Source of the DNA: Hemiscyllium ocellatum
Lineage: Eukaryota
NCBI RefSeq assembly: GCF_020745735.1
Contig: NC_083433.1
Location: 18,983,363 to 19,047,362 of the forward strand
Reading direction: 5' to 3'
DNA length: 64,000 bases
The position numbers and the translations under genes are program-made. The notes under the pieces are model-generated. The model saw only the letters and a list, made by a program, of their open reading frames with translations. It did not search any database and was not told where the DNA came from. This document shows positions 14,458 to 39,784 of this stretch, piece after piece. Each line of letters opens with the position of its first letter. Position 1 is the first letter of the stretch.

Positions 14458-15247
14458 GTACGATAATCAGTTATGAGAGTAAACCTATGCAAAATTCCTG
14501 TGTTCACTTTTTTCCCCCCAACTTTGTGTCTCCCTCGCTCGAAACCGTTTCAGGAGCACCGCTTCCCTCCCAAAAGCTGCATCTCAATGTCTGATCTGCA
14601 TTTTTGATGGATCAAGACGTGATTGCTAGGCGGCACTTCGACTGCAGGGGCCATCACACTCTGAATTCTCCCCGCCTCCTGGTCGATCAGGAGTTTTGTT
14701 TTTTCAATTAAAAAAAATAGGAGAGAGAATGTGGTCTTTGAAAAAGGCGTTGTAAACCGCCAACAGTGACTTTCATTAGGGGATTGGATTAACATTTGGA
14801 AGGGAGCTTTCAAAAAAGCCAGATCAACACTTTCTGCTGTTCAGAAGTGATCTGCCTGCAAAGTGAGTCAGAATGATTTGAAGGAACCAGTGTAGGACTG
14901 GGGTGGACAAAGTTTACAAAGAAAACAAATCACACAACACCAGGATGATGAAGGGTTTTGGGTGGGGAAGTCGTGGGATCGTGGTCAAAGCCTCAAATGT
15001 GTGGTAGAGAACAGGTGAATAGTGCTGGGGACTTCACAGAGAGTCAGCCACAGGATTACTTTGACATTTGTGGAAGAGAGCGGCAATGATTAACTGGGAA
15101 TAGGTCTTGGTGACTGACACAACAAACAAACGACAAAGTCAGGACCAAACTTTATCAAGGAGCCCCTTTGTTACTGTACATATGCTTCTTTCTTTATGTT
15201 GTGCCACCCATCAGTGGTAGACCTGTGAATAAGTGAAATACTACGTG

Positions 15248-15772
15248 TTTAGGGAGTTCTTCCTATCTGCTCTCCCTGCTATAGGAAAGATGTTGTGGAA
15301 CTTGAAAGGGTTCAGAAAAGAATTACAAGGATGTTGCCAGGGTTGGGGGATTTGAGCTATAGGGAGAGACTGAACAGACTGGGGCTGTTTTCCCTGGAGC
15401 GTCAGAGGCTGTGAGGTGACCTTATAGAGGTTTACAAAATTATGAGGGGCAGAGATAGCATAAATAGACAAAGTCTTTCCCCTGGGGTGGGGGGAGTCCA
15501 GAACTAGAAGGCATAGGTTTAGGGTGAGAGGGGAAAGGTATAAAAGAGACCTAAGGGGCAACTTTTTCACTCAGAGGGTGGTATGTGTACGGAAGGAGCT
15601 GCCAGAAGAAGTGGTGGAGGCTGGTACAATTGCAACATTTGGATGTGTATACGAATAGGAAGGGTTTGGAGGGATATGGGCCGGGTGCTGGCAGGTGGGA
15701 CCAGATTGGGTTGGGATATCTGGTCAGCATGGACGGGTTGGATCTAAGACTGTACATCTCTAAGACTCTATA
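15248..15772 (+). mobile_element. CR1/HER1 LINE 3' fragment
   Basis: High similarity to 10450-10970. Confidence 0.88.
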
Positions 15773-15939
15773 ATCAGTGATGCTGTGGTAATGTCATCGG
15801 CCTATTAATTGATAAACCTAAACTAAAACGCTGAGAATATGGGTCAAATCCCACCATGGCAGATAGTGATTTTGTTTTTAAAATCTTGAATTAAAAAGAT
15901 AGATCTTAAATGGTGTAAAAATCAATGTGTTTCACTAAT

Positions 15940-16079
15940 TCAGAAGTCACATGACACCAGGTTATAGTTCAAAAGCAGCTCTGAAAGTTTGTGATTTTAA
16001 ATAAATTTGTTGGACTATAACCTGGTGTCATGTGACTTCTGATCTTGTCCACCGCAGTCCAACATGGGCATCTCCATTA
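15940..16079. mobile_element. palindromic PLE-terminus insertion (family B-related) with tail, inside a SINE
   Basis: tcagaagtcacatgacaccaggttatagt / actataacctggtgtcatgtgacttctga inverted arms; 37-nt tail; TSD-like tg(t/g)ttcactaat at 15928-15939 and 16080-16091. Confidence 0.75.
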
Positions 16080-16874
16080 TGGTTCACTAATGACCTGGAG
16101 GGAAGGAAATCTGCCGTCGCTACTTGACCTGACCAATCCGTGACTCCAGATCCACAACGATGTGGTTGACTTCTGGGTCATAAGGAGTGGGCATAAATGC
16201 TGGTCCTGCCAGTGACACCCATATCCCATGAACAGGTAATAAACAAAATTGTACTTTTCACACCCGCTGGTTGTCTTAAAGTGCTTTACAGCCAATGAAA
16301 CACCTTCTGAAACATAGTCACTGCTATATTGTGAGAATCACAGTGGCTAAGTTGTGTTTGGCAAAGTCCCCCAAACAGCAACGTGGTAATCTGTTTATTA
16401 AAGGTTGAATTTTATCAGGGCACTGGGGAGAAACCATCTCTTCAAAATAGCACCTGAGAGGGCAGATCGGGCCTCTGCTAAACATTGCATTCAAATGCCA
16501 GTACCTCCAACAGTGCGGCACTCCTTATGAACTGCACTCAGTTATCAGCTGTGTTCCTTTGAACAGGGATACGAATCCAAAACCATGTGATTCACGGGCA
16601 AACATGCAACCAATGATCCCTAGCTGACATGAAGTGAGATAGATGTGTTCTTAACATAGCTGACAACATGGACTTGACGGGGTAAAGGGCTATGCTGTAG
16701 ACCTCTATGACTCAGCTGTGAACCTGTATCATGGGTGAGGTAAAAACAATGACTGCAGATGCTGGAAACCAGATTCTGGATCAGTGGTGCTGGGAGAGCA
16801 CAGCAGTTCCGGCAGCATCCATGTATCATGGGTGGTGTTCCCTTTCTAAGCAAAGGAACCAGAGTTGGAAATTA

Positions 16875-17118
16875 AAAATGAAAAGAACTGCAGATGTTAT
16901 AAAGCAGAAACAAAAACAGAAATTGCTGGAAAAGCTCAGCAGGTCTGGCAGCCTCTACTGGAGAGAAGTCATTGTTAACATTTGGGTCAAGTGACCCTTC
17001 TTCAAAACTTAGTCTGTTCTGAGGAAGGGTCACTCCATCCGAAATGTTAACTCTGATTTCTCTCCACAGATGCTGCCAGACCTGATGAGCTCTTCCAGCA
17101 ATTTCTGTTTTTGTTGCA
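16875..17118. mobile_element. palindromic PLE-terminus insertion (family C) with degenerate hammerhead
   Basis: Arms aaacagaaattgctggaaaagctcagcaggtctggcagc / gctgccagacctgatgagctcttccagcaatttctgttt; GTT-CTGAGGA..GAAA-TGTT-AAC at 17016-17051. Confidence 0.72.
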
Positions 17119-17854
17119 TACCTAGGCATTCCTCACTTACTTTAAGATCCCAACAGTTGATGTTTCCTCACTGTCTGGTTTCCTCTCACAGTCCAAAGGT
17201 GTGCAGTTTAGGTGGATTGGCCATGCAAAATTTCCCATAGTGTCCAGAGAAGAGCAGGCTAAGATTAGCCCTGGGAAAATGCAGGGTTACAGGGTGGGAA
17301 GATCTTTGGAAGGCCGGTGTGGACTCGATGGTTCGAATGGCCTACAACACATTGTGGTGTTGATCTGCTGCCAAAGACTTCAAACAAAAACGCTTATTTA
17401 ATCATTTGGGGAACAATATTAAAAACAACACCGCTCAGCCTGTTTCAAGTGAAAATTACGACCATAGACCTAAGAGTTATTAATAAATCCAAAAGGGAAT
17501 TCCAAGTGAAACATTTTTTTACGAAGGGGTTGGTTAGCACAATGGTTTACTTCATTTAGTGAACCCCATAATTTATTGTGAAATTCTGTGAAGCCCCAAC
17601 AGGCACTCCCTGCTACCTCCCAATGTCTATATTTTACAAAACAAAAATGAAAATGAAGTAGAGAGCCATCGAACAAATGATTATCTTTTATTACCAACAT
17701 GAGTTAGGAGTAGGAGTAGGCAACATGGTCTCTGGAGCCTCCTCTGCCATTCTGTATAATTTTAGCTGATCTGATAGACCTAGCTTCCCACCTACACTTG
17801 ATGGCCTTTTCCTCCCTTGTTTGTCAGGAATCTATCCACTTCTGCCTTAAAGGT

Positions 17855-18162
17855 TTAGATTACTTACAGTGTGGAAACAGGCCCTTCGGCCCAACAAGTC
17901 CACACCGACCCGTCGAAGCACAACCCACCCATACCCCTACATTTACCCCTTACCTAAACACTATGGGCAATTTAGCATGGCCAGTTCACCTGACCCGCAC
18001 ATCTTTGGACTGTGGGAGGAAACTGGAGCACCCGGAGGAAACCCGCGCAAACACGGGGAGAACGTGCAAACTCCACACAGTCTGTCGCCTGAGTCGGAAA
18101 TTGAACCCGGGTCTCAGGCGCTGTGAGGCAGCAGTGCTAACCACTGTGCCACCGTGCTGCCC
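17855..18162 (-). mobile_element. HE1-type SINE, full length
   Basis: Near-complete reverse complement of 3517-3814. Confidence 0.92.
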
Positions 18163-18402
18163 ACTAAGGTATACTTGCTCCACTTGCACTGCCTTTCAAG
18201 GAAGAGTGCTCCAAAAAATTGGTGAGAAAAAGATTGCACCCTATCTCTGTTTTAAATAGGAAACCCTCACATTTAAAAACAGCGTCCTAGTTCTAGGTTC
18301 CCCACAGCAATATGTCAAGGATCCCCAGATAGCGCCTTTCAAACACATGACCACTGCAATCTGGGAATTTGAGGGCAGCCATTGCTTGGGAACACCAAAT
18401 CT

Positions 18403-19133
18403 AAGATGGTGGCAGTGTAGGATGCTTCAGTCAGAGCTCATCCACTCTCTCCATTTCTTTCTCCTTTCTATGTCTTTCCTTCTGTCTCTTTTTGTTCCTA
18501 TCTGGGTGTTTCTTTTGTTCGTTCCTTCACTCATGGCTTCAGCATTGGAGAGGCGTTGTCTTGGCCCAATCCCTTGGTTCTGTCTCTTGGTGGCCTGTCG
18601 CGATCTCTTGGTGGCACAAGGTGGTCTTTTGGCCCAGCTTGGCGGTGTCTCGACCCGGTGTCTGGGCAGTCCGTGACGGTGTCTTGCCCTAGTCCCTCAG
18701 CCCCGGTGTGGCGGTTTCTCGGTGTGCAAGTGGGTCCTGCCTGGGCAGCAGGAGGAGATCAGGGAGGCAGCAGCTGTAGCAACAGCGATGGCATTATAGC
18801 CCAGTGTGAGAAGGGCTCGAGGTGAGGGCCGTTCCTGGTATCTGAGGTGACAGCATTGAGAACAGATAGCTGAGCTAAGTGGAGGGCTATCAAAGACTGT
18901 TGAACTTTTAACTTTATTCCTTGATTTTTCTAATTTATATTAAGAAGAGCTTTAATGTTAACTATTAATTTTTAAAAAATGTTTCTACTTATTTTATGAA
19001 TGTAATGCTTGTCTTTTTAATTTTGTTTATTTTGCTACTTTGACCCCAAGATAGCATCATGTGTGGCGGCATTATACACTTTTCACTGTACTCCTGTACA
19101 TGAGTACACATGACAATAAGATCTAAATCTAAG
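18403..19133 (+). mobile_element. non-autonomous LINE-tailed element (aagatgg start, TCTAAA tail)
   Basis: 3' end cttttcactgtactcc..acatgacaataagatctaaatcta is shared with inverted copies at about 4975, 31975 and 63866; aaatctaag at both ends. Confidence 0.45.
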
Positions 19134-19494
19134 TCTACAAGGGTTCCTCCAGGCCATTTACCATTCTGACTTGGAAATATCTCACCGTTCCTCTGTGTTG
19201 TTGGTTCAAAACCGCGGAACTCCCTCCCTAACAGCATTGTGGGGCCACCTATTAAGAATGAACTGCAGCAGTTCACGAAGGTTCAAAATACTTCATGACC
19301 ATCTTCTTAAGGGCAATATGGAGTAGGCAAAAATATGCTGGCCAGACAGTGATGCTCACACCTACTGAAGAAATGTTATAAAGGAAAAGGAAACACCTTT
19401 TTCACGTCCACCCAACCAAGATGCCTCAGGATTTGTCTTAATCACTGTCCATGTTAGCCATACCTCAATATGCAAAGCCAATCTTTGGTGGCTA

Positions 19495-19945
19495 TTGATA
19501 TGTTGCCAGGTTTGGAGGGTATGAGCAGTAGGGAGAGGCTGAATAGGCTGGGTCTATTTTCCTGGATGGTCAGTGGCTAACAAAATCATGAGGGCCATTG
19601 ATAGGGTAAACGGTCAAGGTCTTTTTCCCAGGATAGGTGAGTCCAAAACTAGATGGAACAGGTTTAAGTTGAGGGGGAAAGGATATTAAAGGAACCTAAG
19701 GAGCAACGTTTTCATGCAGAGGATGGTGCGTGTATCAAATGAGCTGCCGGAGGAAATGGTGGAACTGGTACAATTACAACATTCAAAAGGCAGCTGGATG
19801 GGTATATGGATAGGTAGGGTTTGGAGGGATATAGGTTAAATGCTGGCAAATGGGATTAGATTAGATTAGGATGTCTGGTCGGCATAGACAAATAGGACCA
19901 AATGGTCTATTTCCATGCTGTACAGCTCTATGGCTCTATGACTTT
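19495..19945 (+). mobile_element. CR1 3' fragment
   Basis: CR1 C-terminal segment with ctctatggctctatgact tail. Confidence 0.8.
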
Positions 19946-20159
19946 ATGTTGCAATTAAATTGCCTCTTCCTCTTCTGAACTCAAAATGTACGAATAATGA
20001 AAAGTATTTCAAGATACAAATGACCTGAAAATTTGTACGTAATACTTTCATTATGCTGGGGGATCCCTTAGGCTTCTGGGGACTCTGGCTGGAAAACAGA
20101 CTAGGCTAGATTATGAAACTGAATACTGCAGCGAGCTGTTGAATAATGCCAAATGAATG

Positions 20160-20535
20160 CAAAAGAGGAAATTGAAACACAGGGGGGCATGGCTGGTCTA
20201 GATCTGTCTGCGGAGAGTGAATTCTATGCCTGACAACTGGCATGTGAAGAGAATCCGTAACTCTGCATTTCAAAATTGACATGTTGACGTTGCTCTGCTC
20301 CCTTTTCTCTTTAAGAGCTCCAACTGTTGTAGAAACCTCTCTGCGCTGCTGTAATTGCAAGTGCACTTTAGGAAGGTGGGGGACTTCTGAAGTGATGTGG
20401 GAAGAGAGACAAGGAACCCCGGGACAAGGAACTCCTTTTTCTTTTTATTCCTGGTGACTATTTGGAAAACCCCTACAATTAATGACTGTTTCTGTTCCCA
20501 CTGAGGAACTATCTTTAAGTGGGGAATTCCCATGG
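20160..20535. promoter_or_regulatory. candidate intronic immune enhancer
   Basis: GAGGAA + GAAATTGAAAC (20165-20178); kB-consensus GGAAAACCCC (20464-20473) and GGGGAATTCCC (20521-20531) in apparently non-repeat DNA. Confidence 0.4.
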
Positions 20536-20950
20536 TCCGTAGAATGAAAAGAAATATCCTTTTTTTTTGGCGGACGAGTGACAAGAGTTTCATTATTAAA
20601 GGTGCTGATATTATTTTTCACGGATTAGTTCAACACATGACAAGGCCATTGAGTAATCTGGTCTGCACTGGCTCTTTCCAGCTGTCTTTAATTCCACTCC
20701 AGTTTTCGGTCCACATATCCCTGTGATTTTCTTTCTTTCAAAATTTATTTGGGGCAAAGCAATTGAAGGTGCCTCCACCACATTCCTGGGCAGTGCATTT
20801 CAAATCCTGAACATTTTACTCCTGCCACTCTTGGTTCTTTTGCCCTTTGCACAATATCCACACCCCTCTGCTTTTCCTGAAGCTCTAAACATTGATATCT
20901 GTTTCTCTTTGTGTACTCATGCAGAACCTCTCCTGATTTTAAACAAATAG

Positions 20951-21178
20951 TCAGTCATAGAGCAATACAGCACAGAGGCAGACCATTCAGTCCAATAGTC
21001 CAGACCAGCCATATTCTCAAACCAAGCTACTCCCACTTGCCTGTATTTGGCCCATATCTCTCCAAACATTTCTTATTCATGTATTTATCTAAGTCTCTTT
21101 TAAAAGTTGTAACTGTACCCACATTCACCACTTTCTCTGGAAGTTCATTCCTCACACATTTCACTCTCTGTGTAAACT
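20951..21178 (-). mobile_element. CR1 3' fragment abutting the truncated ERV env
   Basis: agtcatagag.. tail reverse complement, cccacttgcctgtatttggccc. Confidence 0.75.
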
Positions 21179-21723
21179 AATCGCCCCTGAAGTGTTTTTA
21201 GGGTGCGAGGCCAAGAACAGGGAGGAATGTGAGTCATAAGTAAAGGGGCCCGCATACCCTAGATAGGAACTACCCAAGTCCAGGGTATGCCTTATGGTCA
21301 CAAATGAAATAGGTACCATTATAAGTTCTCAAGTAATTGGTCTGAGTTCCAGTCCAAAGAGTTGTGAACTTGGCACTAGTAGTAGTCTTGTTGGGAACTT
21401 CAAGGGTCAGGATACTCCCAGTAGAAATGGATCAGCACACGGACGGGGTAAGAAGCAGAGAATGGGTACGTTTACTGGTCCCAGCATTCCACCCTGACGT
21501 GTGGCTGCTTTTCAAGCAGATGGTTCCAGTTGGGGTACCCTTTCCTGTGGTGTTAGTGAGGACCAGAGCTGGGGGGGTGTATGTCAGGGGTTGTGGTGAA
21601 GCCGGAACCAACCCTTACACTTTTCCATATCATAACCTGCGGACCCCCAAGGGAACCTGTTATTGGCGGCAGAATTGGCCCTGCCAGGGTCTCGCATAAA
21701 AGAGTTGTGAGATTCCCAGGCAA

Positions 21724-21911
21724 GGATCAGCAGGTCAGGCAGCATCTGAGGAGCAGGAGAGTTGACGTTTCGGGCATAAAATTCCTGAAGAAGGGCTCAT
21801 GCCCGAAACGTCGACTCTCCTGCTCCTCGGATGCTGCCTGACCTGCTGCGCTTTTCCAGCAACACATTTTCAGCTCTGATCTCCAACATCTGCAGTCCTC
21901 ACTTTCTCCTA
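21724..21911. mobile_element. palindromic PLE-hammerhead insertion (family A) in env
   Basis: Inverted arms; + strand CUGAAGA-AGGGC-UCAU-GCCC-GAAAC-GUC from 21785; TSD ga(t/c)tcccaggcaa at 21711-21723 and 21912-21924. Confidence 0.85.
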
Positions 21912-22198
21912 GACTCCCAGGCAAACCTACTTCCCCCGCAGGTAGACATATCGGAGGACCTGTTTTGTTCCAACCACGTTCAGCTATTTTAGATTCATTA
22001 AATGGGATGGGTCTCAGGGGTTTCCTCTCTTAGAGTGTATGGGGATAGGGCGCATACCCAGCAGCTAGACTGGTTAACCTTCTGTGTGTAAGTGTAAATC
22101 ATGTGAAGAAAAGTGTTGACATGAACTCCATTGTGATAGAGTCCATCATTCCATCTTCCCTGTACCCCTCATGCACAGTCAGTATGAACAAGGCAATG

Positions 22199-22381
22199 TC
22201 AAGATTAGAGTGGTGCTGGAAAAGCACAGCAGGTCAGGCAACATCCGAGGAGCAGGAAAATCGATGTCCTGATGAAGGGCTTTTTCCTGTTCCTCGGATG
22301 CTACCTGACCTGCTGTGCTTTTCCAGCACCACTCTAATCTTGACTCTGATCTCCAGCATCTGCAGCCCCCACTTTCGCCTT
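22199..22381. mobile_element. palindromic PLE-terminus insertion (family A variant) in env
   Basis: Arms 22199-22260 and 22282-22343; perfect 14-bp TSD TGAACAAGGCAATG at 22185-22198 and 22382-22395. Confidence 0.9.
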
Positions 22382-22436
22382 TGAACAAGGCAATGAGGAG
22401 CACAGAGACTGAAATGGCGATTGGTCTCTACATATA

Positions 22437-22740
22437 GGGCGGCATGGTGGCACAGTGGTTAGCACTGCTGCCTCACAGCACCAGGGACCTGGTTTCAATT
22501 CCCGCCTCAGGCGACTGTCTATGTGGAGTTTGCACGTTCTCCCCATGTCTGCGTGGGTTTCCTCCGGGTGCTCCGGTTTCCTCCCACAGTCCAAAGATGT
22601 GCGGGTCAGGTGAATTGGCCATACTAAATTGTTCGTAGTGTTAGGTGTAGGGGAATGGGTTTGTGGTGGTTGCGCTTCGACGGGTCGGTGTGGACTTGTT
22701 GGGCCGAAGGGCCTGTTTCCACACTGTAAGTAATCTAATA
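22437..22740 (+). mobile_element. HE1-type SINE inserted between ERV integrase and env
   Basis: Full head, core and tail. Confidence 0.92.
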
Positions 22741-22744
22741 TTGT

Positions 22745-25700
22745 GGATGGGGGGTGAGCTGATGCCTCTGGCGCTTTCTGCTTGTGTCCCCCTGGGGATG
22801 GCGCTCTCTTGCAGCAGGTTCCATGCGTCCACTCAGGTCTTTCCTTGACCTTGACAGCCATCCGGCTTACCAGGAGGACGAGGTACGGGCCTTTCCACCT
22901 GAGAGAAAGGAAGTTCTTTTCCAATGATTTTATCATGACATAGTCCCCAGGTTGGAAGGGATGCATTGGGTCTTCACTAGGTGCAGGAATGGCCTCCATT
23001 ACCCGATCATAGGTATGGGTAATCGTCTTACAGATGATTATGCTTTGACATAATCCAGAACAGCTTCCTGTGTCAAGATTAATGCTGTATCCACTGGAAA
23101 TTTTGGAGCTCATTCTTCACCCCCCCCACCCCACCCCTCAGGACCTCAAATGAGGTAAGTCCTGTGGTTCTGTTGACCTAGTTTCTTATGGTATGCAGGG
23201 CAAAGAGTAGAGCTTCTGGCTAAGGTAGACCCGTGTACTGGAAGATCTTTGTCAGAGTGGCTTTAAGGGTACCATTCATCCATTCCACCATGCCTGAGCA
23301 CTGGGGCTGATAGGGAATATGACATTTCTCCACGATGCCTAGTGCTTTAGTAAAACTGTCTGTGACTGCCACAGGAAAGTGAGTACCTCTGTCACTGTTA
23401 ATGCTCCCTGGAATTCTAAACTTAGGGATCACATCCTTCATGAGGCATTTGACCACTGTTCTAGCATCATCTTTCCTTGTGGGGAAGGCCTTTACTCATT
23501 TAGAAAACATGTCAGCAACAACCAACATGTACTTTAAACACTGTATAGCTGGCACGTGAATGAAATCATTCTGTAAATGATTAAAGGGTCGGTCTGGGAC
23601 TGGCAGATGATCATACCTGGCTAAAGGTTGAGCATTACTGTTCTGTAGACATATTAAATATTTTGATACTTGTGCTGCTGCTGCAAAGCCTGGTTCATAC
23701 TAAGTTTGTAGTACTGCATGGATCATCCCCCCTTCTCCTGCATGACCGACCCCATGAGCGGCTTGTGCAAGAACATGCAAGTAGGCTTTAGGACAAATGA
23801 ACCTTCCATCAGGATGCACCATTAGCCCTAAAGGGGATTCCTTCGTTCCTATGCACATCCAACTGTTGTTCTGAGCTTGTGGAGTGTGTTGCTGTGCAGT
23901 CTGCCTCCCCTCTATTAGATCTAAAACCTTTGTTGCTTTCCCTGTCTTTGGAGCTTGTAAAACCCATACAGTGGGAGGTAATGCTGCTCACCTAGCAGCT
24001 TGGTCAGCGCGAGCATTCCCTCAGGCGATTGGGTCATCAGTGGCGGTAAGGGAGGTGCACTTTATCTCCACTACAGTGGAGGGGAGCATAATGGCCTGTA
24101 AAAGATTGTTGATGAGCAGGGCATGCTGCAAGGGCCTTTCAGAAGAGGTAATAAATCCTCTGTTTCCCAGGGTTCCAAAATCATGTACCACTCCAAAGGC
24201 AGGTCTGGAGTTGGTGCAAATGGTAACAGAACCCTTGCCAGCAAGGACACAGGCTCTGGTAAGGGCAACCAGTTTGGCTGCTTGCGCAGAAGTTCCTTTG
24301 GTGATCGGAGGGTCAAAAAGAGGAGCCGTCTGTGAAAAGGATCATGTCTGGGTTGTCTAATGGAGTTCCAGAGAGGTTGGGATGCAGGGTGACAACTACT
24401 AGGATGACATGCAGACAATCACGATCCTCTGCCGGGGAATGCTGTATAACAGGGAGAAAGGTGGCAGGGTTTAAAGTGGGGGCATGGCGAAGCTTAAGAT
24501 TAGTGAGAGAAAACAGGACGACCTCATAGCCAGTTATCCTTGATGCCGTAAAATGCTGAGTCACTGCTGAATTGAGCAGCAGGGAAACCGAATGAGGAAC
24601 AAAAACCGAGCTAGGATAATCCGGCACAATAAGGGTGGACGTTTTTACCATTACAGCAGCAGCCACCACAGCCCAGATACAGGCCGGCATTCCCCTCACA
24701 ACAGGTGGTATCTATACAGGTTAATAGGCAACAGGACGTCGGAGATCCCCACGCAGTTGTATTAGAAAGCTGGACGCATATCCCTCCTTTTCGTTAACAT
24801 ACAGCTGAAAAGGCAGCGTGTAAGCGGGGAAGACCAGAGCAGGTGCTGAGGTTAAGCGCTGTTTAAGTTCCTTAAAAGCTTGGGCCATTTCAGGCGTTCG
24901 GTTCAGTGAGGTTTGGCGAGGATGTCCGACGGAGAGGCGCATCACTAACTCAATCGTCCGGTATCCAGTGTCTGCAGTAATTCACCATGCCCAAAAAAGG
25001 ACAACAGCTCAGTTTGTGTAAGGGGAGGAGAAGGGTTCATGATGGCTGCAGTGCTCTGAGACCGTGCACACGTTTGTAGCCCAAATATTGTGCTGTGTTT
25101 TGGCAGAGTTGCATTTTTTCAACAGGGACCTTATATCCGTCCTGAGCCAGATGGTGTTGCAATGCAACAGTATCACACACGAAGGCATCAAGAGGCCACT
25201 AATAAATCATTGGCGTACTGAACCAAGGTGTTTTTACATGGCACGTGGAGGTCCTTCAGGGTCCGGTGTACCGCAGACGCATATTCGGTGGGGCTCTCCG
25301 TGTATGCTTGGGGAAGCTGTGTCCATGTATACTGGCAGCTGCCCTAAGTAAAGGCAAAAAGGTACTGGCTTTCCAGTTTAAGGGAGAGAAAGGCCGAACC
25401 GAGGCCAATGGCAGAAAAACTATTGGTAGCAGCAGGGAGGCTAGCAAGGATGGCATTGGTGTCTGGGGAGCATGGTGGCACTGCTGCCTCACAGCGCCAG
25501 AGACCCTGGTTCAATTCCCGCCTCAGCGTGTGGAGTTTGCACATTCTCCCTGTGTCTGCGTGGGTTTCCTCCGGGTGCTCCAAAAATGTGCAGGTTAGAT
25601 GAATTGGCCGTGCTAAATTGCCCACAGTAACAGGTGAAGGGGTAAATGGGGTGGGTTGCTCTTTGGAGGGTCAGTGTGGACTTGTTGGGCCTGTTTTCCA

Positions 25701-25990
25701 CACTGAGAGTAATCTAAATCTAAACAATGGCATTGACTGCCCTCAACTCCTGCACAAATCTCCACCATCCCGGTTTTCCTGTATTAGGAACAGGGAGGAT
25801 AGGAGTGTTGCAGGGGCTAATGGTAGGCACCAGGAGGGAATCAATAACTGGTTTTATACCTTCGTTGGCAGCTGGTGACAAATTGTAGTGTCTGATAGAT
25901 GGTCTGATGCCCTGATGTTTCACAGTGACTGTATGAGGCGGAGTCATTGGAGTGCCGTGCCCATAATGATGGTGGCTCATTATTGAGCAC
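22745..25990 (-). pseudogene. pol: ERV pol (RT, tether, RNase H, integrase)
   Basis: PCNTPILPV..WRFVQELRAVN, SQYLFAFT, YTWTQLPQAYTESP, AFKELKQRLTSAPAL, LNPATFLP, LFTDGSSF, HGVGH zinc finger, SDRGTHF, PQCSGMVE..NGTLK, FQPGDYV..WKGPY. Confidence 0.92.
25465..25724 (+). mobile_element. HE1-type SINE inserted in ERV RT
   Basis: SINE core interrupts RT between RAVNAIV and PDTNAILASLP. Confidence 0.88.
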
Positions 25991-26299
25991 TAAGGGGCTG
26001 CCATAGGAGGGGCAGAGTTGCGGGGTCTGCAAGGTAAATGTCATATCTTTAGATGAGGGAAACTCCTCCTCTCCAAAACAGGAAATCCGCATGTGGTCGG
26101 GATCCGCAGGGTCCAGGGGTTTCAATTCCTTCAGCAGACTGCGGAGTCCGTGCACCATGGGCCCCAAATCCTTTGGGTACCACATGGCTTTAACAATGAT
26201 TGAAACCATGAGGAAATGGGGGGGGGGATTTATTTCGGAAAAGCGGTCTTTGTTCGGCATTGAGCTGAATGTCAGCGGTCATGGCGGCCTATAAAAGTG

Positions 26300-26630
26300 G
26301 GTAATTAGAATCAGGGAGTTCTAAGGTGATGCCCTGTGGAGAGCAATGAATGGAGGCATTCAGTTTGCAGACAGTCTAGGGGCCGAGAAGGGCCACCGGG
26401 CCGGAAAGGGAGACTATAAGAGTGTTGGGGGACCGTCGATGGACCAATGACAATAGGAACTTGGGGGAGGGGCGGGGCTAGAAAGACAAGGCAGTCCAGA
26501 GACACCCACAGTGGAAACTGTGTCAGAGCTGAGAGGAAGGGCCGCTGAAGGAGGCGCTAGGTAGCTCCAGAGCCCACCAAAACCGAGACAATATGTCCCC
26601 TCATCTCAACGTCCATCATGGGGTTTTCTG
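26300..26630 (-). pseudogene. pro: ERV protease, inactivated
   Basis: PMMDVEMRGHIVSVLVGSGAT* corresponds to LVD(S/T)GATYS with catalytic D changed to G and a stop. Confidence 0.7.
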
Positions 26631-26639
26631 ACAGGTAAT

Positions 26640-28485
26640 GGGAGCATTGTATTGAGATGGCCTGCAAAATCCTCCTTATGCAGCAGCTCGAGACATTAGG
26701 GGCGTGGGGAAAAGGGTCGTGAAGAGTACACATGGCCTGTGGAGGCTGTTGTTGCAGGGGAAGTTAGTGGTGCTGCTGTTGAGGGGTGGCTCACACCCAG
26801 TGGCCTATTTTCCCACATGCTCTGCATCTGACTCTGCTTTTATCCCTATGTTGCTGTCCCTTTCCCTGGCTTTGTCCCTGATTCCATGTTTGTGTGAATC
26901 GGGGAGGTAAGCCTCTTTTTCCTCTTTGTAATCGAAAAGACCCTGTCGATCCATACTGGTAAGGGCAGTGAGGAGGGGATCCCAGTTCGTCTCCTGCCAG
27001 TTGAGGTTATGGGATTTGAAGGTCTAGACGCGATGGGGCTCCGTGCAATTGGCAGAGGTCTGGACCACTGAACAATCCTTGTCTGAGAGAGGTATGCCTG
27101 CAGATGATTCCCTAAACTTCCTTAAAGTGAGCAAGGAAATCAAGTATAGGCTCATTCACTAATTGCAGACAGGGCATGACTACTCCAAAGTCTGCCTGTT
27201 GACATGCTGCTGTCATAATGGCAGGCTTAACGGTGTCCACAAGCCAATTTGCTTGTAAATCTGCATTAGTCTATGGCGCCTGGGGGAATTCAAGGGAGCT
27301 TTTTATGACTTCCCAATGGGTCCCATACACCAGATGTTTTAAAGTCTGGAAGTCCTGTGGCAGGCAATTATAAATACTGCAGATTTGGACTAGCCAATTA
27401 TAAAATGGCATTGGGCATTTGAGTGGATCAGAGGTGTCTTGGAGCATGCCGTGGACCTCAGTAAGGGTTCAAGGCTTCTCGGGCGTGTTGCCGATCATGA
27501 CCCGCGGTAACTGAATGGGGGGCTTCGTCGTCGAGCATTTGGCATGTCTTTTGGTGCTTGTGGAGAACATGGTGGAGTCGGATTCTTCCTGACCGTGTCC
27601 CCCCAGCGGCACCCACTTCGGCCCCTTGTTGTTGTTGAAGGAAAGAATTCTGAACGAGATCCTCTCAGCCTTGGAGGTGGGCCGGAGGATGAGTAGCAAC
27701 AAAAGCAACAATTTAAGACCATAAGACCATAAGACATAGGAGTGGAAGTAAGGCCATTCGGCCCATCGAGTGCACTCCACCATTCAATCATGGCTGATGG
27801 GCATTTCAACTCCACTTACCCGCATTCTCCCCGTAGCCCTTAATTCCTCGAGACAACAAGAATCTATCAATCTCTGCCTTGAAGACATTTAGTGTCCCGG
27901 CCTCCACTGCACTCTGCGGCAATGAATTCCACAGGCCCACCACTCTCTGGCTGAAGAAATGTCTCCGCATTTCTGTTCTGAATTGACCCCCTCTAATTTT
28001 AAGGCTGTGTCCACGGGTCCTAGTCTCCTCGCCTAATGGAAACAATTTCCTAGCGTCCACCCTTTCCAAACCATGTATTATCTTGTACGTCTCTATTAAG
28101 TCTCCCCTTAATCTTCTAAACTCCAATGAATACAATACAATTTCGTCCATGAGAGGGTCTGGGTCTAGGGTGCAGATGGGAACTTTAGGATACTGAGAGG
28201 TATAAGATGTTGGGGACCCAGAATACGAAATGTCGCCGAGCAGCTGACAGGGGTCTTTATTTTTAGGGGGCTGATGGCTTTTTGCAACTTCTTTAAATTT
28301 ATTTAAACGTCGGAGCATGTAATCAGTATTCCAGGAGGGATCGCCGTACCCACCCTTAATGTTTGTCCTCTAATAATCAATGTTTCCAATTTAAAGCAAC
28401 CTCCATAAGGCCAGTTCCAGTGGGACCACCCACATAAGTCGGAATTGAAAGCAATAACATATCTACTGTCCCCGTCTCCTTCCAA
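26640..28485 (-). pseudogene. gag: ERV gag, disrupted
   Basis: MA-like WNWPYGGCF; capsid KP*TLTEV..DP.K.P..FYNWL..IY..LPQDF; MHR-like CLQLVNEPILDFLAHFKE. Confidence 0.75.
27715..28136 (-). mobile_element. young CR1 3' fragment inserted in gag
   Basis: Open LYSLEFRRLRGDLIETYKI..GKWS*; (ATAAGACC)n tail; 7-bp TSD ACAATTT at 27708-27714 and 28137-28143. Confidence 0.88.
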
Positions 28486-28946
28486 CCAATATCGGCTGGT
28501 GACCCTGGTGGCACCAGGGGGACTCCTACCTTATTTTTGCATCGAACATATTTGCTGTGGCACTGCTGCATCTTTACTGAGGGGACGAATAGACGTGGGC
28601 CGTCCTTCTCAGCAAGCCATGGTTTAACTTGTCCCCGAGGCCGGCCCACCATGTAGAAGTTGTTGACCCCATTGTTGCTTCCTCAGTTCCGAAGCACGGA
28701 TCTAGGGTCTGTGGAGAAATGAACAACAAACCTACAAAGACTGACAAACCAGCACTGGCGCCATTTTCAATCCCTCAAGGTCACCTTTAAAATGATTTCT
28801 GTCCCACAACACCGATCTTTCCAGTCACGCCTTGTCACAGCATCTCTCCCTAATTTGGGATATGCCTGTCGACTCAGGTTTGGATTACAGAGGCAGCCTT
28901 GTTCTAAAAACTACTGCAGGTTCGCTCAGAATTACATAATTAAAGG

Positions 28947-28964
28947 ATCCCGTCGACTACGCCA
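28947..28964 (-). promoter_or_regulatory. ERV primer binding site, tRNA-Ser
   Basis: TGGCGTAGTCGACGGGAT, 3 nt after the LTR end (..TTCAACA); 16/18 match to the complement of the vertebrate tRNA-Ser(AGA/TGA) 3' end, TGGCGTAGTCGGCAGGAT. Confidence 0.85.
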
Positions 28965-28967
28965 GAT

Positions 28968-29347
28968 TGTTGAAGAAAGTCCCTATACTCAAACCTTGAT
29001 TATGACAAACTTTGTTGCATGATATCATGGGGAGCACACCTTTCCTAAGCATGGTCCAGTGCTACTCCAAAGCACTCCAGATCACTCTGGATTTATATAG
29101 GTACAACAGATGCTGAGTTGAACCGCAAGCTAGTTACTAGAGGGCCTACGTGGCTATACACCAGTCCAAGGTCTTGCCTTGCATAGAACTGTACATTAAC
29201 GAGCTGTTGTTCTCAGACCTTGAGTCAATGCACACCACGTTCACACACTGACAATGTTTGCCTGAGTTGTGCTTTTGCTTAGCAGGTGTCTACAGAGAAA
29301 CAGTTCATGAGTTATGTGGGAAAAGCAGAAGTTACGTGGCTGTTACA
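28968..29347 (-). repeat. ERV 5' LTR (about 380 bp)
   Basis: TGT...ACA termini on the minus strand, TATATAAA (plus 29092-29099), AP-1 TGAGTCA at 29221, decayed polyA signal CAACAAAG; adjacent PBS. Outer boundary inferred. Confidence 0.72.
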
Positions 29348-30163
29348 GAATGTCCTAACCTGTCAAGGGCCACCGAGGGCAAGGGGCCAAGCCAAGTGAG
29401 AACAACACCATGACTCACTAAAAATGGCTGCAAACAGGCAGTCCAGCAAAAACAGCTTCCACAAACATTTATGTAACTGACAAACAAAAGTGGACCCCAG
29501 CACCAAAACTTTCATTTAAATTATGAATGTAGATTGTAAATACAATAGTTTAAATCCCGGCACTAATCCATGAGCCAATCCATTACTTAAAATTTGCCAA
29601 CCTGAAAATGGTCTAGTTATCTCGACTACAAGTAACATGTAAATCAAATCTCTTTGAATACAGAAGACTTTCTTACTTTCTCCTGTCTATCCACATAACT
29701 GTAAACTTTCATCTCCGGGTAAATTTCCTGTATACATTTCAAAGCTTTCAGATCCTTCTTCACTGTATTCCCTCAAATTTGATTTAGCACGCAAGCAGAA
29801 CAAGTGGTTTCTAACTTCGTCCCATTTGTAATCACTGCCTCTATTCATAAAGCTCCTAATCTCACGTGCCTCATGAATTACTATGTAAACCTATCCTGCC
29901 TTCCTGCCATGACATGTGCACAGATATCCAATTGTCACCCTGTTTTGAGACTGTACCTATCAGCTTCAATCATCTTCCTGTATTCTTCTCATAAAATGAA
30001 ACGCCTTCTGTCTTGAATTTCATTGGCAGTGTTATTTCACCCATTCCATCAGCTTCCCTGTGTCTTCTTAAAGCCCATTTTTGGGTTCCAAACAGTTTCT
30101 GAACCTTTCGAATTTTGTGTCATCTGCAAACTGCAGAACTGCACTTTGTATCTCCAACTTGGT

Positions 30164-30473
30164 GGGCGGCATGGTGGCACAGTGGTTAGCACTGCTGCCT
30201 CACAGCGCCAGAGACCCCGGTTCAATTCCTGACGCAGGCGACTGACTGTGTGGAGTCTGCACATTCTCCCTGTGTCTGCGTGGGTTTCCTCCGGGTGCTC
30301 CGGTTTCCTCCCACAGTCACAAAGATGTGCAGGGCAGGTGAATTGACCATGCTAAATTGCCCATGGTGTTAGGTAAAGGGGTAAATGTAGGGGAATGGGT
30401 GGGTTGCGCTTCGGCGGGTCAGTGTGGACTTGTTGGGCCGAAGGGCCTGTTTCCACACTGTAAGTAATCTAAA
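30164..30473 (+). mobile_element. HE1-type SINE, full length
   Basis: Head, core and tail. Confidence 0.92.
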
Positions 30474-30479
30474 CTTCTT

Positions 30480-30683
30480 CACACAGAGGAATGAGGTGGT
30501 AGAGGCTGGTACAGTTACAGCATTTAAGAGTCATCTGGATGGGTATGTGAATAGAAATGTTTAGAGGGATTTGGGCCAAGTGCTGGCAAATGGGACTAGA
30601 TTAATTTAGGATATCAGGTTGGCATGGACGAGTTGGACTGAAGAGTCTGTTTCTGTGCTGTACATCTCTGTGACTCTATGACT
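30480..30683 (+). mobile_element. CR1 3' fragment
   Basis: ctctgtgactctatgact tail. Confidence 0.75.
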
Positions 30684-32081
30684 AAGTCATTAATGTGTAT
30701 CAAAAACAAAAGTGGTCTTAGGACTATGTACTGGGGAGGAACACTATAAAAGAGCACAAGAAATAGAAGCAAGTTGAGATCATTCAGCCCATTGAGCCTG
30801 CTACGTTCTGGCCGATTGAGACTGACCTTGGGCTACAACTCAACTTTCCTGCCCGCTCTCCATATTTTTTGATGGCCTGGGAAAGTCTGTCTATCCCAGC
30901 CTTAAACATGTTCAGCGCCAAAGCATCCACCACCCTTTGGGTAACAAATCAAAATGATGTTTATTCAGCTTTTAAATTTACAATGCTCACTGAACTGCTG
31001 CGCACTACTGCAAACTATTTTTTCTCACTGTTGAAGATTTCTGTCTATGACATATCAATTCTGCCACACGGATGTTACATCCCGGGGTATAACGCCTTGC
31101 AAATATCAGGCTGTTTCTTGGCCTTATTGTTGGCACAGACTACAAGTGTAGGATAAAAGGATTAAGATTGCCGCCAATGACAACAGGCACAGGCCTGCTT
31201 GATGTGCTGCCTGCAGTCACAAGCCAGCTGTTCCTTGGGAACATTACAGCTATTAGCCGAGTAGGCCATTCGGTTCTTCAAAACTTGCTGACCCCATACC
31301 CTTAACTCCCTTGCCTATCAAAAGTTGAATTGATTCAGAGTTGAATAAGTTCAGTGTTCCAACCTCCATTGCTTTCTGAGGGAATGAGTTCTATACAGTA
31401 ACCATCCTCTGAGAGAAATACAATGCAGGAGCCATCGTAGGCAGGAGATTTTTTTTTTGCAATGGTGTTCTCTAGCTCTCATGTCCCTCACAAGAGGAGA
31501 CACCCGTCCTGTCAAATCCCCTCAGGATTCTGTCTGTTTCAATTAGATTACCTCCCTTCCTTCTAAAGAAAGACCAAGATGTCCAACACTATAAAATACA
31601 TCCTGCTGTGCCTGGATGAGTTGAGCAAACCTTTGGTGAACTGCTTTATATTGTGTCCTTGCTTAAATAATGAGTTCAAAGCTGCACACAGTGCTGTTTG
31701 CATGTGGTCTCACTAAGGCCTTGTACAGATGTAGTAAAGTGTCCCTAACCAGTATATTCCAATCCCCTTGCAAGAAACATCAGCAAGCTATATTTTCGTA
31801 ATCCTTTGCTGTACCTAAACTCTAACATTTAGTGGTTCATATATCAGGGCACTCAGATCCCTCAGTTCTACCAAGTTCTGCAATCTCTCTCCATTAAATA
31901 TTATTGCTGCGTTTCTATTCTTACTGCCAAAGTGGAAAAATTCACATACTCTCACATGATTTGAATTAGAATTAGATTTAGGTTTATTGTCATTCAAGTA
32001 CAGGAATACAGGAGTACAGTGAAAAGTTTACAATATCACCCTTAATGGTGCCATTTTAGGTACGCAGTACCTCGGTACAAA

Positions 32082-32369
32082 TTAGATTACTTACAGTGTG
32101 GAAACAGGCCCTTCGGCCCAACAAGTCCACACCGACCCACCAAAGCGCAACCCACCCCTACCCCTACATTTACCCCTTACCTAACACTACAAGCAGTTTA
32201 GCATGGCCAATTCACCTGAGCCGCACATCTTTGGACTGTGGGAGGAAACCCACGCAGACACGGGGAGAACGTGCAAACTCCACACAGTCAGTCGCCTGAG
32301 TCGGGAATTGAACCTGGGTCTCAGGCGCTGTGAGACAGCAGTGCTAACCACTGTGCCACCGTGCCGCCC
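32082..32369 (-). mobile_element. HE1-type SINE
   Basis: Reverse-complement head, core and tail; acaaat on both flanks. Confidence 0.92.
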
Positions 32370-32633
32370 ACAAATCTTAGACACAAAATAGAGAAATTTT
32401 TAAAAAGTTACATTACCTTACAGTGATTCTTAGTATAAGTTGAAAAATAAGAGATACTCCATCTGACAAATTTTTGCTGAGTCATTTAATTTATATTCCT
32501 TTGTAGCTTATTTACATGTTTTTGACACCACAGTAACCCACCAATCTTGATGGATTGGCAAGTTTAATGACCGTACATTCAGTCCCTTTGTCATCAATAG
32601 AAATTTTAAATTGCTGAAGCTCCTAGCATTGAT

Positions 32634-33722
32634 TTCTTTTTTATTTCAAAAATATACTTTATTCGTAAAATAATCATAAAATAATTTGGTCTGTACATTT
32701 GGTCATGCCGTACATATGTCAACATTTACATACACAGATCAGAAATTATCATTGTTATATACAGGTCTGTGCATTTCTCGCTCATACGCCCATATATTGA
32801 GCTGAGGCGTCAGCAGAGCCCAAACGACTCCATGGGCCCCCTGTTCTTCTTTAGACAGGCAGATGTTACACGGTGGTCTTTCCCCACCGCGCCTTGGCGG
32901 CAGCTGCCCCAAGCTTCAGCGCGTCCCTCAACACGTAGTCCTGGACCTTGGAATGTGCCAGTCTGCAACACTCAGTCGGGGTCAACTCCTTCAGCTGGAA
33001 GATCAACAGGTTTCAGACCGCCCAGAGAGCGTCCTTCACCGAGTTGATGATCCTCCAGGCGCAGTTGATGTTCGTCTCAGTGTGCGTCCCGGGGAACAGG
33101 CCGTAGAGCACGGAGTCCCGCGTCACGGCGCTGCTCGGGACGAACCTCGACAAATACCACTGCATTCCTCTCCAGACTTCCTCTGCATAGGCACATTCCA
33201 GAAGGAGGTGTGTGACAGTCTCTTCCCCCCCGCAGCCGCTTCGAGGGCAGTGTGCAGTGCGGCTGAGAGTCCGGGCGTGCATAAAGGATCTCACAGGCAG
33301 AGCCCTTCTCACCACCAGCCAAGCCATGTCTTGGTGCTAGTTGGACAGTTCTGGCGATGAGGCATTCTGCCAAATGGCTTTGACAGTCTGCTCAGGGAAC
33401 CGCTCGATAGGATCCATCCTCTCCTTTTCCCGAAGGGTCTCGAGGACACTACATGCTGACCACTTCCTGATGGATTTGTGGTCAAAGGTGTTTTCCTTCA
33501 TAAATTTCTCCACGAAGGACAGGTGATACGGAACGGTCCAACTACTCAGAGCATTCTGCGGCAGCGAGGCCAGGCCCATCCTTCGCAACACCGGGGACAG
33601 GTAGAACCTCAGTACGTAGTGACACTTGGTGTTTGCGTACCGGGGATCCACGCACAGCTTGATGCAGCCACACACAAAGGTGGCCATCAGGGTGAGGGTG
33701 ACATTGGGTGTATTTTTTCCCC
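32634..33722 (-). mobile_element. 5'-truncated L1/Tx1-clade LINE (ORF2 C-terminus and 3' UTR)
   Basis: WLVVRRALPV..CPRSGCGGEETVTHLLLEC zinc knuckle; AATAAA and A-rich end; perfect 18-bp TSD GAAGCTCCTAGCATTGAT at 32616-32633 and 33723-33740. Confidence 0.88.
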
Positions 33723-34169
33723 GAAGCTCCTAGCATTGATCACTTCACTCCCACGGCCTCCAGCTATTACATTGTGTAATATTCTTTGACGTAACTCCTT
33801 AACAAATGCCTTTTAGTTCAGCTAAGTATTTCCTGCTATGATTTCTGCAAAGCACTCTAGTAAATTAGTTAAACTTGATTTCCCATTTACAAAACCATTT
33901 GACTCTGCCTGATCCCATTATCATTTTCTAAACATTGTGTTCTCTCAGCATTTCTTTAGATGAAGATTTTAAGAAGGTTGCATTTATCGGTTCCAGGCTT
34001 GCTGGCTGGCTAGTCAGCAGAGTGCTTAGATTCTTCCACAGTGGGTCATGTGAAGGTGATTGGATCTGCCCTTCTCCACCCTTCCTCCTTCGTGCTATAT
34101 GCTCGCTCAGTCTCAGAGGAGACTGAAGCACTCCTGATTTGTGCACTCCCATTATAATGATGCCATTAT

Positions 34170-34650
34170 TAAACTGGAGACGGCTTAGCAAAGACTGTTG
34201 CCAGGAATGGAGGGTTTGATATATAACAATAAATTGGAAAGGCTGGGACTTTTTTGATAGGAGCATAAGAGATTGAAGGGGTGACCTTATTGAAGTTTAT
34301 AAAATCATGAGGGATGTAGATAATGGCAGTTACCTTTCCTCTAGGGTAGGAGATTTCAAGACTGGGGGCATATCTTTAAGACGAGAGGAGAAAGATGTTA
34401 TAAAGACATGAGGGACAACTTTTTTTACACAGAGAGTCAGCCACGCATGAAAAGCTCTGCCAGAGGATGTGGTAGATGCAGGGACAGTTACAATGTTTAA
34501 AAGACAGTTGGATAAGTCCATGAATGGGAACGTTTTGGTGGGTTGTGGACCAAACACAGACAGGTGGGACCAGCTCAGTTGGGAACATGATGGGCGTGGA
34601 CTGATTGGACTGAAGGGTCTGTTTCCATGCTGTATGACTCTATGACTCTA
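34170..34650 (+). mobile_element. CR1 3' fragment
   Basis: CR1 C-terminal segment and tgactctatgactcta tail. Confidence 0.82.
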
Positions 34651-35336
34651 TCTCCAGGTATCTGAATCCAGGGCCTATGCTTCCCATTGGCAATGGTGAA
34701 TGTTCCATGCAGAAAGGGACTTCGTCAGGGAATACTTAAAAGGTCTGTGTGGGCCCCCTCTGTTAGATTAACCAATGGTCTGTACACTATGATCTTGGAC
34801 AGGCAGCTATCATCCGTCCAGGCAACATAATCTGCCCATCACAAGTTGGCTGGTATGTCCTTGATGATGCTGGCTATTTCCACGACTCAAATATTTGTGA
34901 TTAGACCTTGCCAGGTGATCTTGAGGATGCGGCAGAGTTAATTCTGGAGGATGGACTCTAGAAAGCGAACATATCACCGGTATCACCATAGGACCCATGG
35001 CTCAGGCCCGTGCTGAAGGGTGATGTGGACTGTGGCTCGGTACACTTTGAGTTTGACCTGTGCCCATCTCCATACTTGTTTGTAATGCCCGCTGTTTGCT
35101 TTTGAAAGTCGATTCGCTACTTGGCATCATACAGCATGAAAACAGACCCTTGGGCCCAATTCATTCATGCCAGCCAGATTTCCTAAACAGAACGAGGTCC
35201 ATTTCCCTGCTTTTGGCCCACATCCCTCTAAACCTTTCCTATCCATGTATCTGTCCAAATGTCTTTTAAATGCTGTAATTGTACTTGCCGCTACCACTTC
35301 CGTATTTACACCAGTTCCTTGCCTCTGGTGGTATCG

Positions 35337-39625: not shown

Positions 39626-39784
39626 TAAGAATCTTATAAGCCATCTCCTTTGATCTAACACAGGCAATTAACTCCTTTATTAGTCATGATTAATTCAACA
39701 AGGAGCCTTGAAGGCATATATATTTATTATGAACCATGTCTCTTTTTATTTTGTTATGATTTATTCAAATTATCTGATTCAGTA

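What the first reader, a model, noticed from the sequence alone, without database searches (positions are those of the whole stretch)
21182..29347. Decayed shark endogenous retrovirus with a tRNA-Ser primer, antisense in the B7 intron
The order LTR-PBS-gag-pro-pol-env is complete, with class-I features (tether LNPATFLP, GPY integrase tail, CXXC env). The PBS matches tRNA-Ser at 16 of 18 nt, whereas MLV uses Pro and the walleye epsilonretroviruses use His or Arg. Cartilaginous-fish ERVs are sparsely characterised, so this may be an undescribed lineage. Two SINEs, one CR1 and two PLE inserts plus many stops indicate old age. The antisense orientation fits the known bias for intronic ERVs.
Basis: partly seen in the sequence, partly recalled or inferred. 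Interest (0 to 1): 0.7.

Follow-up and report, generated by a model that had tools for sequence, protein, structure and literature searches.

The report
Ancient shark retrovirus fossil in intron
A broken retrovirus sits backwards in the first intron of a shark B7-family immune gene; it is one of dozens of equally decayed copies of a family that likely invaded carpet sharks about 70-150 million years ago, and it is likely a neutral fossil.

Summary
The provirus is real but incomplete. It reads 5' LTR (29463-28968, 496 bp, not 380), tRNA-Ser primer site, gag, pro, pol and the SU part of env; TM and the 3' LTR are missing. It lies antisense in the 29.5-kb first intron of a CD276/ICOSL-like gene. 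RT and tether match MLV, not Ty3. In pol trees it groups with sawshark, newt and mackerel ERVs, and grouping with gammaretroviruses is rejected (p-AU 7e-60). Its relatives carry a gamma-type env with no room for accessory genes: a described kind of epsilon-related class I ERV. The genome holds dozens of copies, all broken and about 18% apart. The Ser(AGA) primer site and a 5-bp target duplication are family traits. Seven LTR pairs differ by 0.145-0.205, giving roughly 70-150 My on a published carpet-shark rate. The same insertion appears in two other species about 6% diverged. The age is the most interesting result; a Ser primer alone is not new. A published Chiloscyllium ERV catalogue may already hold the family; I could not see its data. 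The scan's notes hold no earlier report of it.

The parts
28968..29463 (-). 5' LTR, 496 bp, TG...CA; the only LTR of this copy
   Evidence: Ends set from LTR pairs of paralogs; loose ends of other copies pile up at 29463/29464; 46 related matches in the genome
28947..28964 (-). Primer-binding site for tRNA-Ser(AGA), 16 of 18
   Evidence: Host tRNA-Ser(AGA) genes found at 4 loci; match counted; one paralog matches 18 of 18
26790..28672 (-). gag, broken by stops, frameshifts and a CR1 insert; Met-Gly start and one zinc knuckle
   Evidence: 39 relatives at E<=0.001, 14 of the 18 scanned carry a zinc knuckle; named ones from Chiloscyllium, Rhincodon, Pleurodeles, Thunnus, Lissotriton; zf-CCHC E 0.008 in the window
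27710..28136 (-). CR1-type LINE 3' end inserted in gag
   Evidence: 93% over 427 bp to the CR1 insert of L012; about 7-bp duplication at its ends
26300..26600 (-). Protease remnant, degenerate
   Evidence: Weak tblastn pieces to P0023; RVP E 0.049 in paralog L011 only
24920..25941 (-). Reverse transcriptase, broken; split by a SINE; YxDD box degenerate
   Evidence: MLV RT E 6e-11 against Ty3 RT E 0.74; 52-56% to sawshark P0021 in the first two pieces
25467..25717 (.). SINE in RT (likely the shark HE1 type; name from a table in PMC3747384, not compared by sequence)
   Evidence: 15 blastn hits in the window incl. itself; absent at this place in L011 and L012
24015..24963 (-). Connection/tether (LNPATFLP) and RNase H, with a short deletion
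   Evidence: E 2e-35 to XMRV/MLV chains, the only 4 hits; Pfam RT_RNaseH_2 and RNase_H
22793..23900 (-). Integrase with core and MLV-type C-terminal (GPY) domain, broken
   Evidence: rve E 1e-10, MLVIN_C E 3e-10
22437..22738 (.). SINE at the pol-env boundary
   Evidence: 84-90% to the five closest other copies in the window
21215..22435 (-). env SU remnant with CWVC; ends before TM
   Evidence: Colinear with env of L011, which goes on into a TLV_coat TM; weak hit to a lizard ERV protein, E 7e-5; no Pfam hit on the one SU stretch scanned
22199..22381 (.). Short hairpin insert, likely Penelope-derived, 14-bp duplication
   Evidence: Self-complementary, 19 hits in the window
21724..21911 (.). Second hairpin insert, likely Penelope-derived, about 14-bp duplication
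   Evidence: 87% to 13654-13752, beside an RT plus GIY-YIG element
21033..21197 (-). Old CR1 3' tail that directly follows the truncated env
   Evidence: tblastn E 3e-11 to the CR1 of L012
29467..29626 (-). Old CR1 RT fragment forming the 5' flank
   Evidence: tblastn E 3e-4; very high contig depth at 29416-29539
14458..43966 (+). Intron 1 of the CD276/ICOSL-like (B7 family) host gene; coding exons at 14405, 43967, 45174, 47740, 49660, 53036, 56718 (approximate starts)
   Evidence: P0004, 99% identical, maps exon by exon; GT and AG ends seen; V-set and C2-set domains

Best explanation
This is a defective copy of a multi-copy shark endogenous retrovirus family of class I, likely epsilon-related, that likely entered the germ line about 70-150 million years ago and has likely decayed neutrally since. 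Shown: the anatomy, the breaks, the family, its Ser(AGA) primer site and 5-bp target duplication, its place outside the gammaretroviruses, and the same insertion in two other species. Inferred: the virus primed reverse transcription on host tRNA-Ser, entered cells with a gamma-type Env, and spread in one burst, because copies differ from each other about as much as the two LTRs of one copy. This copy likely landed in an older CR1 in intron 1 and was tolerated because it faces away from the gene; five retroposons then inserted, and one deletion likely removed TM, the 3' LTR and about 0.7 kb of the CR1. It makes no virus and likely no protein.
For: Class I. Tree: 4 of 4 shark copies form a clade (100/100), inside a 99/98 group with Pristiophorus, Pleurodeles and Scomber ERVs, sister (100/99) to cyprinid, catfish, cichlid and frog ERVs; union with the BaEV-anchored group rejected, p-AU 7e-60 (same shape in 46, 48). 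Gag relatives come from the same host groups. Family: 46 LTR matches and 76 pol matches with only 40 candidates scored each. All 16 pol rows long enough for the tree carry 10-25 breaks. Window pol differs from 22 of 22 paralogs by 16.6-21.5%; 7 LTR pairs differ by 0.145-0.205. PBS at 14 or more of 18 in 8 of 12 loci. Target duplication 47 of 80 bases at 5 bp against 23-29% at 3, 4, 6, 7 bp. Contigs of organisms B and C lie at 93-98% on gag, PBS, LTR and flank.
Against: No named epsilonretrovirus, ZFERV, SSSV or CmiERV was available for the tree, so 'epsilon-related' rests on exclusion from the gamma group and on host company; the trees are midpoint-rooted. The date hangs on one borrowed rate: 0.5e-9 gives 177 My and Han's 2.2e-10 gives 403 My. 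This copy has no LTR pair and is dated through its family. No listed contig of B or C bridges the LTR-flank junction with 31 letters on both sides (29 in each of two). In B and C the LTR looks less diverged than the flank (p 0.03 and 0.05), which strict neutrality does not predict. The single-deletion story could be a chance meeting of two common CR1 scraps.
Confidence: 0.85

Rival explanations
1. The coding part is dead but the LTR has been co-opted as a regulatory element of the B7-family gene.
For: LTR differences to organism B are 14 of 514 against 36 of 673 in the flank (p 0.028), to organism C 19 of 527 against 44 of 716 (p 0.049), at equal CpG density. The LTR sits in a first intron.
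Against: The test is post hoc, uses overlapping contigs picked by length, and B and C are not independent. The window's LTR is no closer to its paralogs than average (0.232; range 0.178-0.284 over 23 LTRs). None of the seven annotated isoforms in the host cluster begins with sequence mapped to the element; the one candidate alternative first exon is at 16228, outside it.
Confidence: 0.08
2. The family is one already catalogued in Chiloscyllium (an ERV-EA or ERV-GA lineage of the anamniote env survey), so the finding is a known family in one more species. This is compatible with the best explanation and lowers novelty only.
For: That survey reports gamma-type-env ERVs in 6 cartilaginous fish, 3 with over 500 copies, and 46 orthologous groups in Chiloscyllium. 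The insertion is shared with two close relatives.
Against: Named Chiloscyllium and Rhincodon gag proteins are only 27-50% identical to the copies, too low to assign them to the family. The paper's main text has 0 hits for PBS or primer binding. Its supplements could not be seen.
Confidence: 0.4
3. It is a Ty3/gypsy LTR retrotransposon or a true gammaretrovirus.
For: GPY-type integrase tails also occur in gypsy elements (own knowledge); best structure-bank hits are MLV and XMRV.
Against: Ty3 RT scores E 0.74 against 6e-11 for MLV; tether and gamma-type TM are retroviral; the gamma union is rejected; no Gag_p30 or zf-H3C2 hit in 9 frames. The structure bank result reflects what has been solved.
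Confidence: 0.02

Closest known systems
Epsilon-related class I ERVs with gamma-type env in anamniotes (bioRxiv 10.1101/2021.11.23.469661; sections 7, 8 and passages read)
   Same: Non-gamma class I pol, gamma-type TM with ISD and CX6CC (in paralog L011), no accessory genes, cartilaginous-fish host, orthologous insertions between close species
   Different: That text gives no primer site and could give no date for its Chiloscyllium insertions; here Ser(AGA) primer, 5-bp target duplication and an LTR-pair date. Sequence identity to its lineages untested.
CmiERV lineages II and III of the elephant shark (PMC4422223; first 10,000 of 14,366 characters read)
   Same: Epsilon-clustering ERVs of a cartilaginous fish
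   Different: Their complete copies have LTR divergence 0.024-0.033, against 0.145-0.205 here: about six times more. Not compared by sequence.
Unnamed ERV pol proteins of Pristiophorus japonicus, Pleurodeles waltl and Scomber japonicus (P0011, P0021, P0012, P0068)
   Same: Nearest relatives in all three trees; 43-49% identity to the broken window pol
   Different: Separate lineages on long stems; the sawshark and mackerel copies keep long open frames, the shark family has none
XtERV-S of Xenopus tropicalis (PMC8278194; passages read)
   Same: tRNA-Ser(AGA/TGA) primer site, 5-bp target duplication, class I-like TM
   Different: Its gag and pol are class III (ERV-L-like, with dUTPase); this pol is class I
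Gammaretroviruses (BaEV as anchor; MLV and XMRV chains)
   Same: Tether, MLV-type integrase tail, CXXC in SU and CX6CC in TM, single zinc knuckle
   Different: Rejected as one clade; no Gag_p30 or zf-H3C2 match

Membership tests
Retroviridae (against Ty3/gypsy) | RT closer to retroviral than to gypsy RT | tested here: met
   MLV E 6e-11, foamy 3e-4, Ty3 0.74
Retroviridae (against Ty3/gypsy) | Tether between RT and RNase H; env after integrase | tested here: met
   TLV_coat E 5e-10 in colinear paralog L011
Retroviridae (against Ty3/gypsy) | Two LTRs, PBS, polypurine tract, target duplication | tested here: met
   Met by the family (7 LTR pairs); this copy keeps only the 5' LTR and PBS
Class I ERV | pol nearest gamma/epsilon-type pol, MLV-type integrase tail | tested here: met
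   no class III outgroup was in the tree
Gammaretrovirus | pol in one clade with gammaretroviruses | tested here: not met
   p-AU 7e-60
Gammaretrovirus | Gag_p30 capsid and zf-H3C2 integrase domain | tested here: inconclusive
   No hit in 9 broken frames nor Gag_p30 in 18 gag relatives; decay lowers sensitivity
Epsilonretrovirus (genus; WDSV, WEHV) | Accessory genes and a non-gamma-type env | tested here: not met
   Leader is under 300 bp; in L011 the TM runs up to the 3' LTR; TM is gamma-type. Defining feature from section 8 of the bioRxiv paper
Epsilonretrovirus (genus; WDSV, WEHV) | pol clade with WDSV and WEHV | not testable with these tools
Epsilon-related class I ERV with gamma-type env | Class I pol outside the gamma group, among fish and amphibian ERVs | tested here: met
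   anchors for the epsilon side are unnamed ERVs
Epsilon-related class I ERV with gamma-type env | CXXC in SU, ISD and CX6CC in TM, no accessory genes | tested here: met
   CWVC in the window; ISD and CX6CC read in L011
A lineage already catalogued in Chiloscyllium or Dfam/Repbase | Nucleotide identity to a catalogued entry | not testable with these tools
   Preprint supplements are closed and the journal version is not held

The most novel reading that the evidence does not exclude
An undescribed Cretaceous (100 My or older) lineage of epsilon-related retroviruses, marked by a Ser(AGA) primer, a 5-bp target duplication and a gamma-type env, that swept the ancestor of several carpet-shark families in one burst. 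Its insertions would be orthologous out to zebra and whale sharks, giving one of the oldest LTR-dated ERV families and a hard minimum age for a virus group shared by sharks, newts and mackerels.
Probability: 0.3. Interest if true: 0.55.

Novelty: new member of a known kind. Interest (0 to 1): 0.33.

Why it matters
Slow shark genomes keep proviruses readable for far longer than mammalian ones. A family whose LTR pairs are about six times more diverged than the dated elephant-shark ERVs gives a deep calibration point for epsilon-related retroviruses and their host jumps between sharks, bony fish and amphibians, and dozens of presence/absence markers for carpet-shark phylogeny. The single copy is otherwise an ordinary intronic fossil.

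Tried and rejected
No 3' LTR or TM found in the window, L013 or L014. The search for related loci in viral contigs: 18 pattern matches, none confirmed, so no named virus from there. Cluster look-ups of 10 pol proteins named only BaEV among viruses. No RNA holder listed: no evidence on expression either way. Whether the nested inserts and the 3' deletion are shared with organisms B and C stays open. Pfam gives no family for the gag middle or the one SU stretch scanned. blastn found no match of the 5' flank to the L012 CR1; only tblastn did, weakly. Han's rate of 2.2e-10 was rejected for dating because it gives about 400 My. Four papers were not held, so primers and target duplications of ZFERV, SSSV and teleost ERVs were not checked. 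Ten paper searches listed no paper describing an ERV family of this shark by title or abstract start; the library lacks most subscription journals. Two notes of the scan concern other elements.
Full report
Observation. The minus strand carries an LTR, a primer site, and broken gag, pro, pol and env. Pfam finds RT_RNaseH_2, RNase_H, rve, MLVIN_C and a weak zinc knuckle among 24 open stretches. Comparison with two paralogs that keep both LTRs (L011, L012) moves the LTR start to 29463 and its end to 28968, 496 bp. Loose ends of other copies pile up at the same place in public runs. Homology to L011 ends near 21215, before TM. The TM part of L011 finds a match in 15 of 21 other paralog loci but not in the window, and no second LTR lies in the window or the 20 kb before it.

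Host gene. The V-set exon matches P0004 at 99%, labelled CD276 antigen-like of Hemiscyllium ocellatum, with orthologs labelled ICOS ligand-like in Chiloscyllium. Its first coding exon ends at 14457 and the second starts at 43967. The provirus lies inside this 29.5-kb intron on the opposite strand. One annotated isoform has another first exon; the only fitting ATG-plus-donor before 44000 is at 16228, outside the element.

Primer site. A pattern for the tRNA end found 4 loci in the genome, all tRNA-Ser(AGA) by ARAGORN. The window matches the expected 18 bases at 16. Of 12 loci with a 5' LTR, 8 match at 14 or more without gaps and one at 18; the other 4 score 7-11. Ser priming is thus a family trait. 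It is not unique among anamniote ERVs: XtERV-S uses tRNA-Ser(AGA/TGA) (PMC8278194, passages), though that element is class III.

Class and kin. An RT piece scores E 6e-11 on MLV RT, 3e-4 on foamy RT and 0.74 on Ty3 RT. The connection and tether match only MLV and XMRV chains, E 2e-35. A profile search returned 414 proteins at E<=1e-60, of which 120 were listed; one cluster holds baboon endogenous virus and anchors the gammaretroviruses. I built one pol row per copy with X at each break; 16 of 23 were long enough. Trees of 135, 45 and 29 rows agree: the shark copies form one clade, joined with Pristiophorus, Pleurodeles and Scomber ERVs (99/98), sister to cyprinid, catfish, cichlid and frog ERVs (100/99). 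Holding them with the BaEV group is rejected, p-AU 7e-60. The models were LG+G4 or LG+CAT without mixture, rooted at the midpoint, and no named epsilonretrovirus was in the set. Gag gives the same company: Chiloscyllium, Rhincodon, Pleurodeles, Thunnus, Lissotriton among 10 looked up. Paralog L011 has a TM with ISD and CX6CC (TLV_coat E 5e-10) that runs up to the 3' LTR. This fits the epsilon-related class I ERVs with gamma-type env and no accessory genes of the anamniote env survey (bioRxiv 10.1101/2021.11.23.469661, section 8), and 'clade Mu' of PMC6001957 (passages). It does not meet the definition of the genus Epsilonretrovirus.

Family. The LTR query gave 46 matches (self, then 68-83%) from 40 of 118 candidates scored; the pol query gave 76 from 40 of 281. 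These are lower bounds. All 16 rows carry 10-25 breaks, the longest unbroken piece 269 residues. Of 28 LTR loci examined, 13 were solo, 7 were taken as provirus ends and 8 lacked a clear end. Over 13 solo LTRs and 3 proviruses the flanks agree at 47 of 80 bases in a 5-bp register and at 23-29% in the others; one solo LTR with a perfect 5-bp repeat was mis-tagged and left out, and one provirus end was off by a base. A 4-bp duplication is the usual class I value (recalled, with known exceptions); I could not check fish ERVs.

Age. Seven LTR pairs give K2P 0.145-0.205, mean 0.177, or 0.157 without CpG sites. Window pol differs from 22 paralogs by 16.6-21.5%, about the same, which implies near-identical copies at insertion and one burst (inference). 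Whale and zebra shark differ by dS 0.0612-0.111 over about 50 My (PMC13100897, passages), or 0.6-1.1e-9 per site per year. That gives a mean of 80-145 My, 71-128 My without CpG. The elephant-shark ERVs have LTR divergences of 0.024 and 0.033 (PMC4422223). The pedigree rate of 7e-10 per generation (PMC10587355, passages) would make the date older, not younger.

Orthology. A 1.85-kb probe over gag, LTR and flank is held at 16-20% of words by organism B (1 study) and organism C (4 studies). Laid contigs run at 93-98% over gag, PBS, LTR and flank, far above any paralog in the own genome. One contig in B and one in C cross the LTR-flank junction with 29 letters on the short side, just under the tool's 31-letter rule, and overlap their neighbours. 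Flank distance is about 0.06, so the family is roughly three times older than that split.

Later history. A CR1 end, two SINEs and two hairpin inserts interrupt the copy; three show clear target duplications. One hairpin matches sequence beside an RT plus GIY-YIG element at 87%, which supports the Penelope label. Both flanks are same-strand CR1 pieces about 0.7 kb apart in CR1 coordinates, consistent with insertion into an old CR1 and one later deletion; CR1 scraps are common, so this is inference.

Against a purely neutral reading, the LTR is less diverged from B and C than the flank (2.7 against 5.3%, 3.6 against 6.1%; p 0.028 and 0.049). The test is post hoc and the counts overlap, and the LTR is not closer to its paralogs than average. 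I give co-option 0.08.

Novelty. The kind is described. The survey above reports such ERVs in six cartilaginous fish and 46 orthologous groups in Chiloscyllium without a date; its supplements, which I could not see, bear directly on whether this family is already listed. What this work adds is the primer, the target duplication, the nearest relatives and a Cretaceous date. Verdict: new member of a known kind, interest 0.33.

Noticed in passing
window 29015-29492: LTR less diverged from organisms B and C than the adjacent flank; weak, post hoc hint of constraint.
   Followed up: partly
window 29104-29444 (X9 record 30, X18 record 22): A second LTR-like contig at about 89-90% in both B and C, closer than any paralog found in the own genome; it may be the partner 3' LTR kept in those species, or a paralog.
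   Followed up: no
window 16228-16237: Only ATG-AAC-AG|GT before 44000; candidate alternative first exon for the annotated isoform that begins Met-Asn-Arg.
   Followed up: partly
window 11686-13752: Penelope-type element with RT (E 9e-9) and GIY-YIG (E 3e-4), 0.7 kb before the first coding exon of the B7-family gene.
   Followed up: partly
window 39690-42031: Long CR1-type LINE remnant with an RT frame (E 1.5e-12) in the same intron.
   Followed up: partly
P0011, P0013, P0021 (Pristiophorus) and P0068, P0125, P0127, P0132 (Scomber): The nearest relatives keep long open pol frames and short terminal branches, so sister lineages were active recently in a sawshark and a mackerel.
   Followed up: partly
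P0269 (unnamed): An unnamed 283-residue protein hits gag in 15 of 23 copies at 37-50% (best ten shown), the closest gag relative; its source was not looked up.
   Followed up: no
L012:5524-6428: The integrase region of this paralog is inverted next to a large CR1 insert.
   Followed up: no
window 32806-33729: Minus-strand frames that look like a Tx1/L1-type LINE remnant (label recalled, not tested).
   Followed up: no
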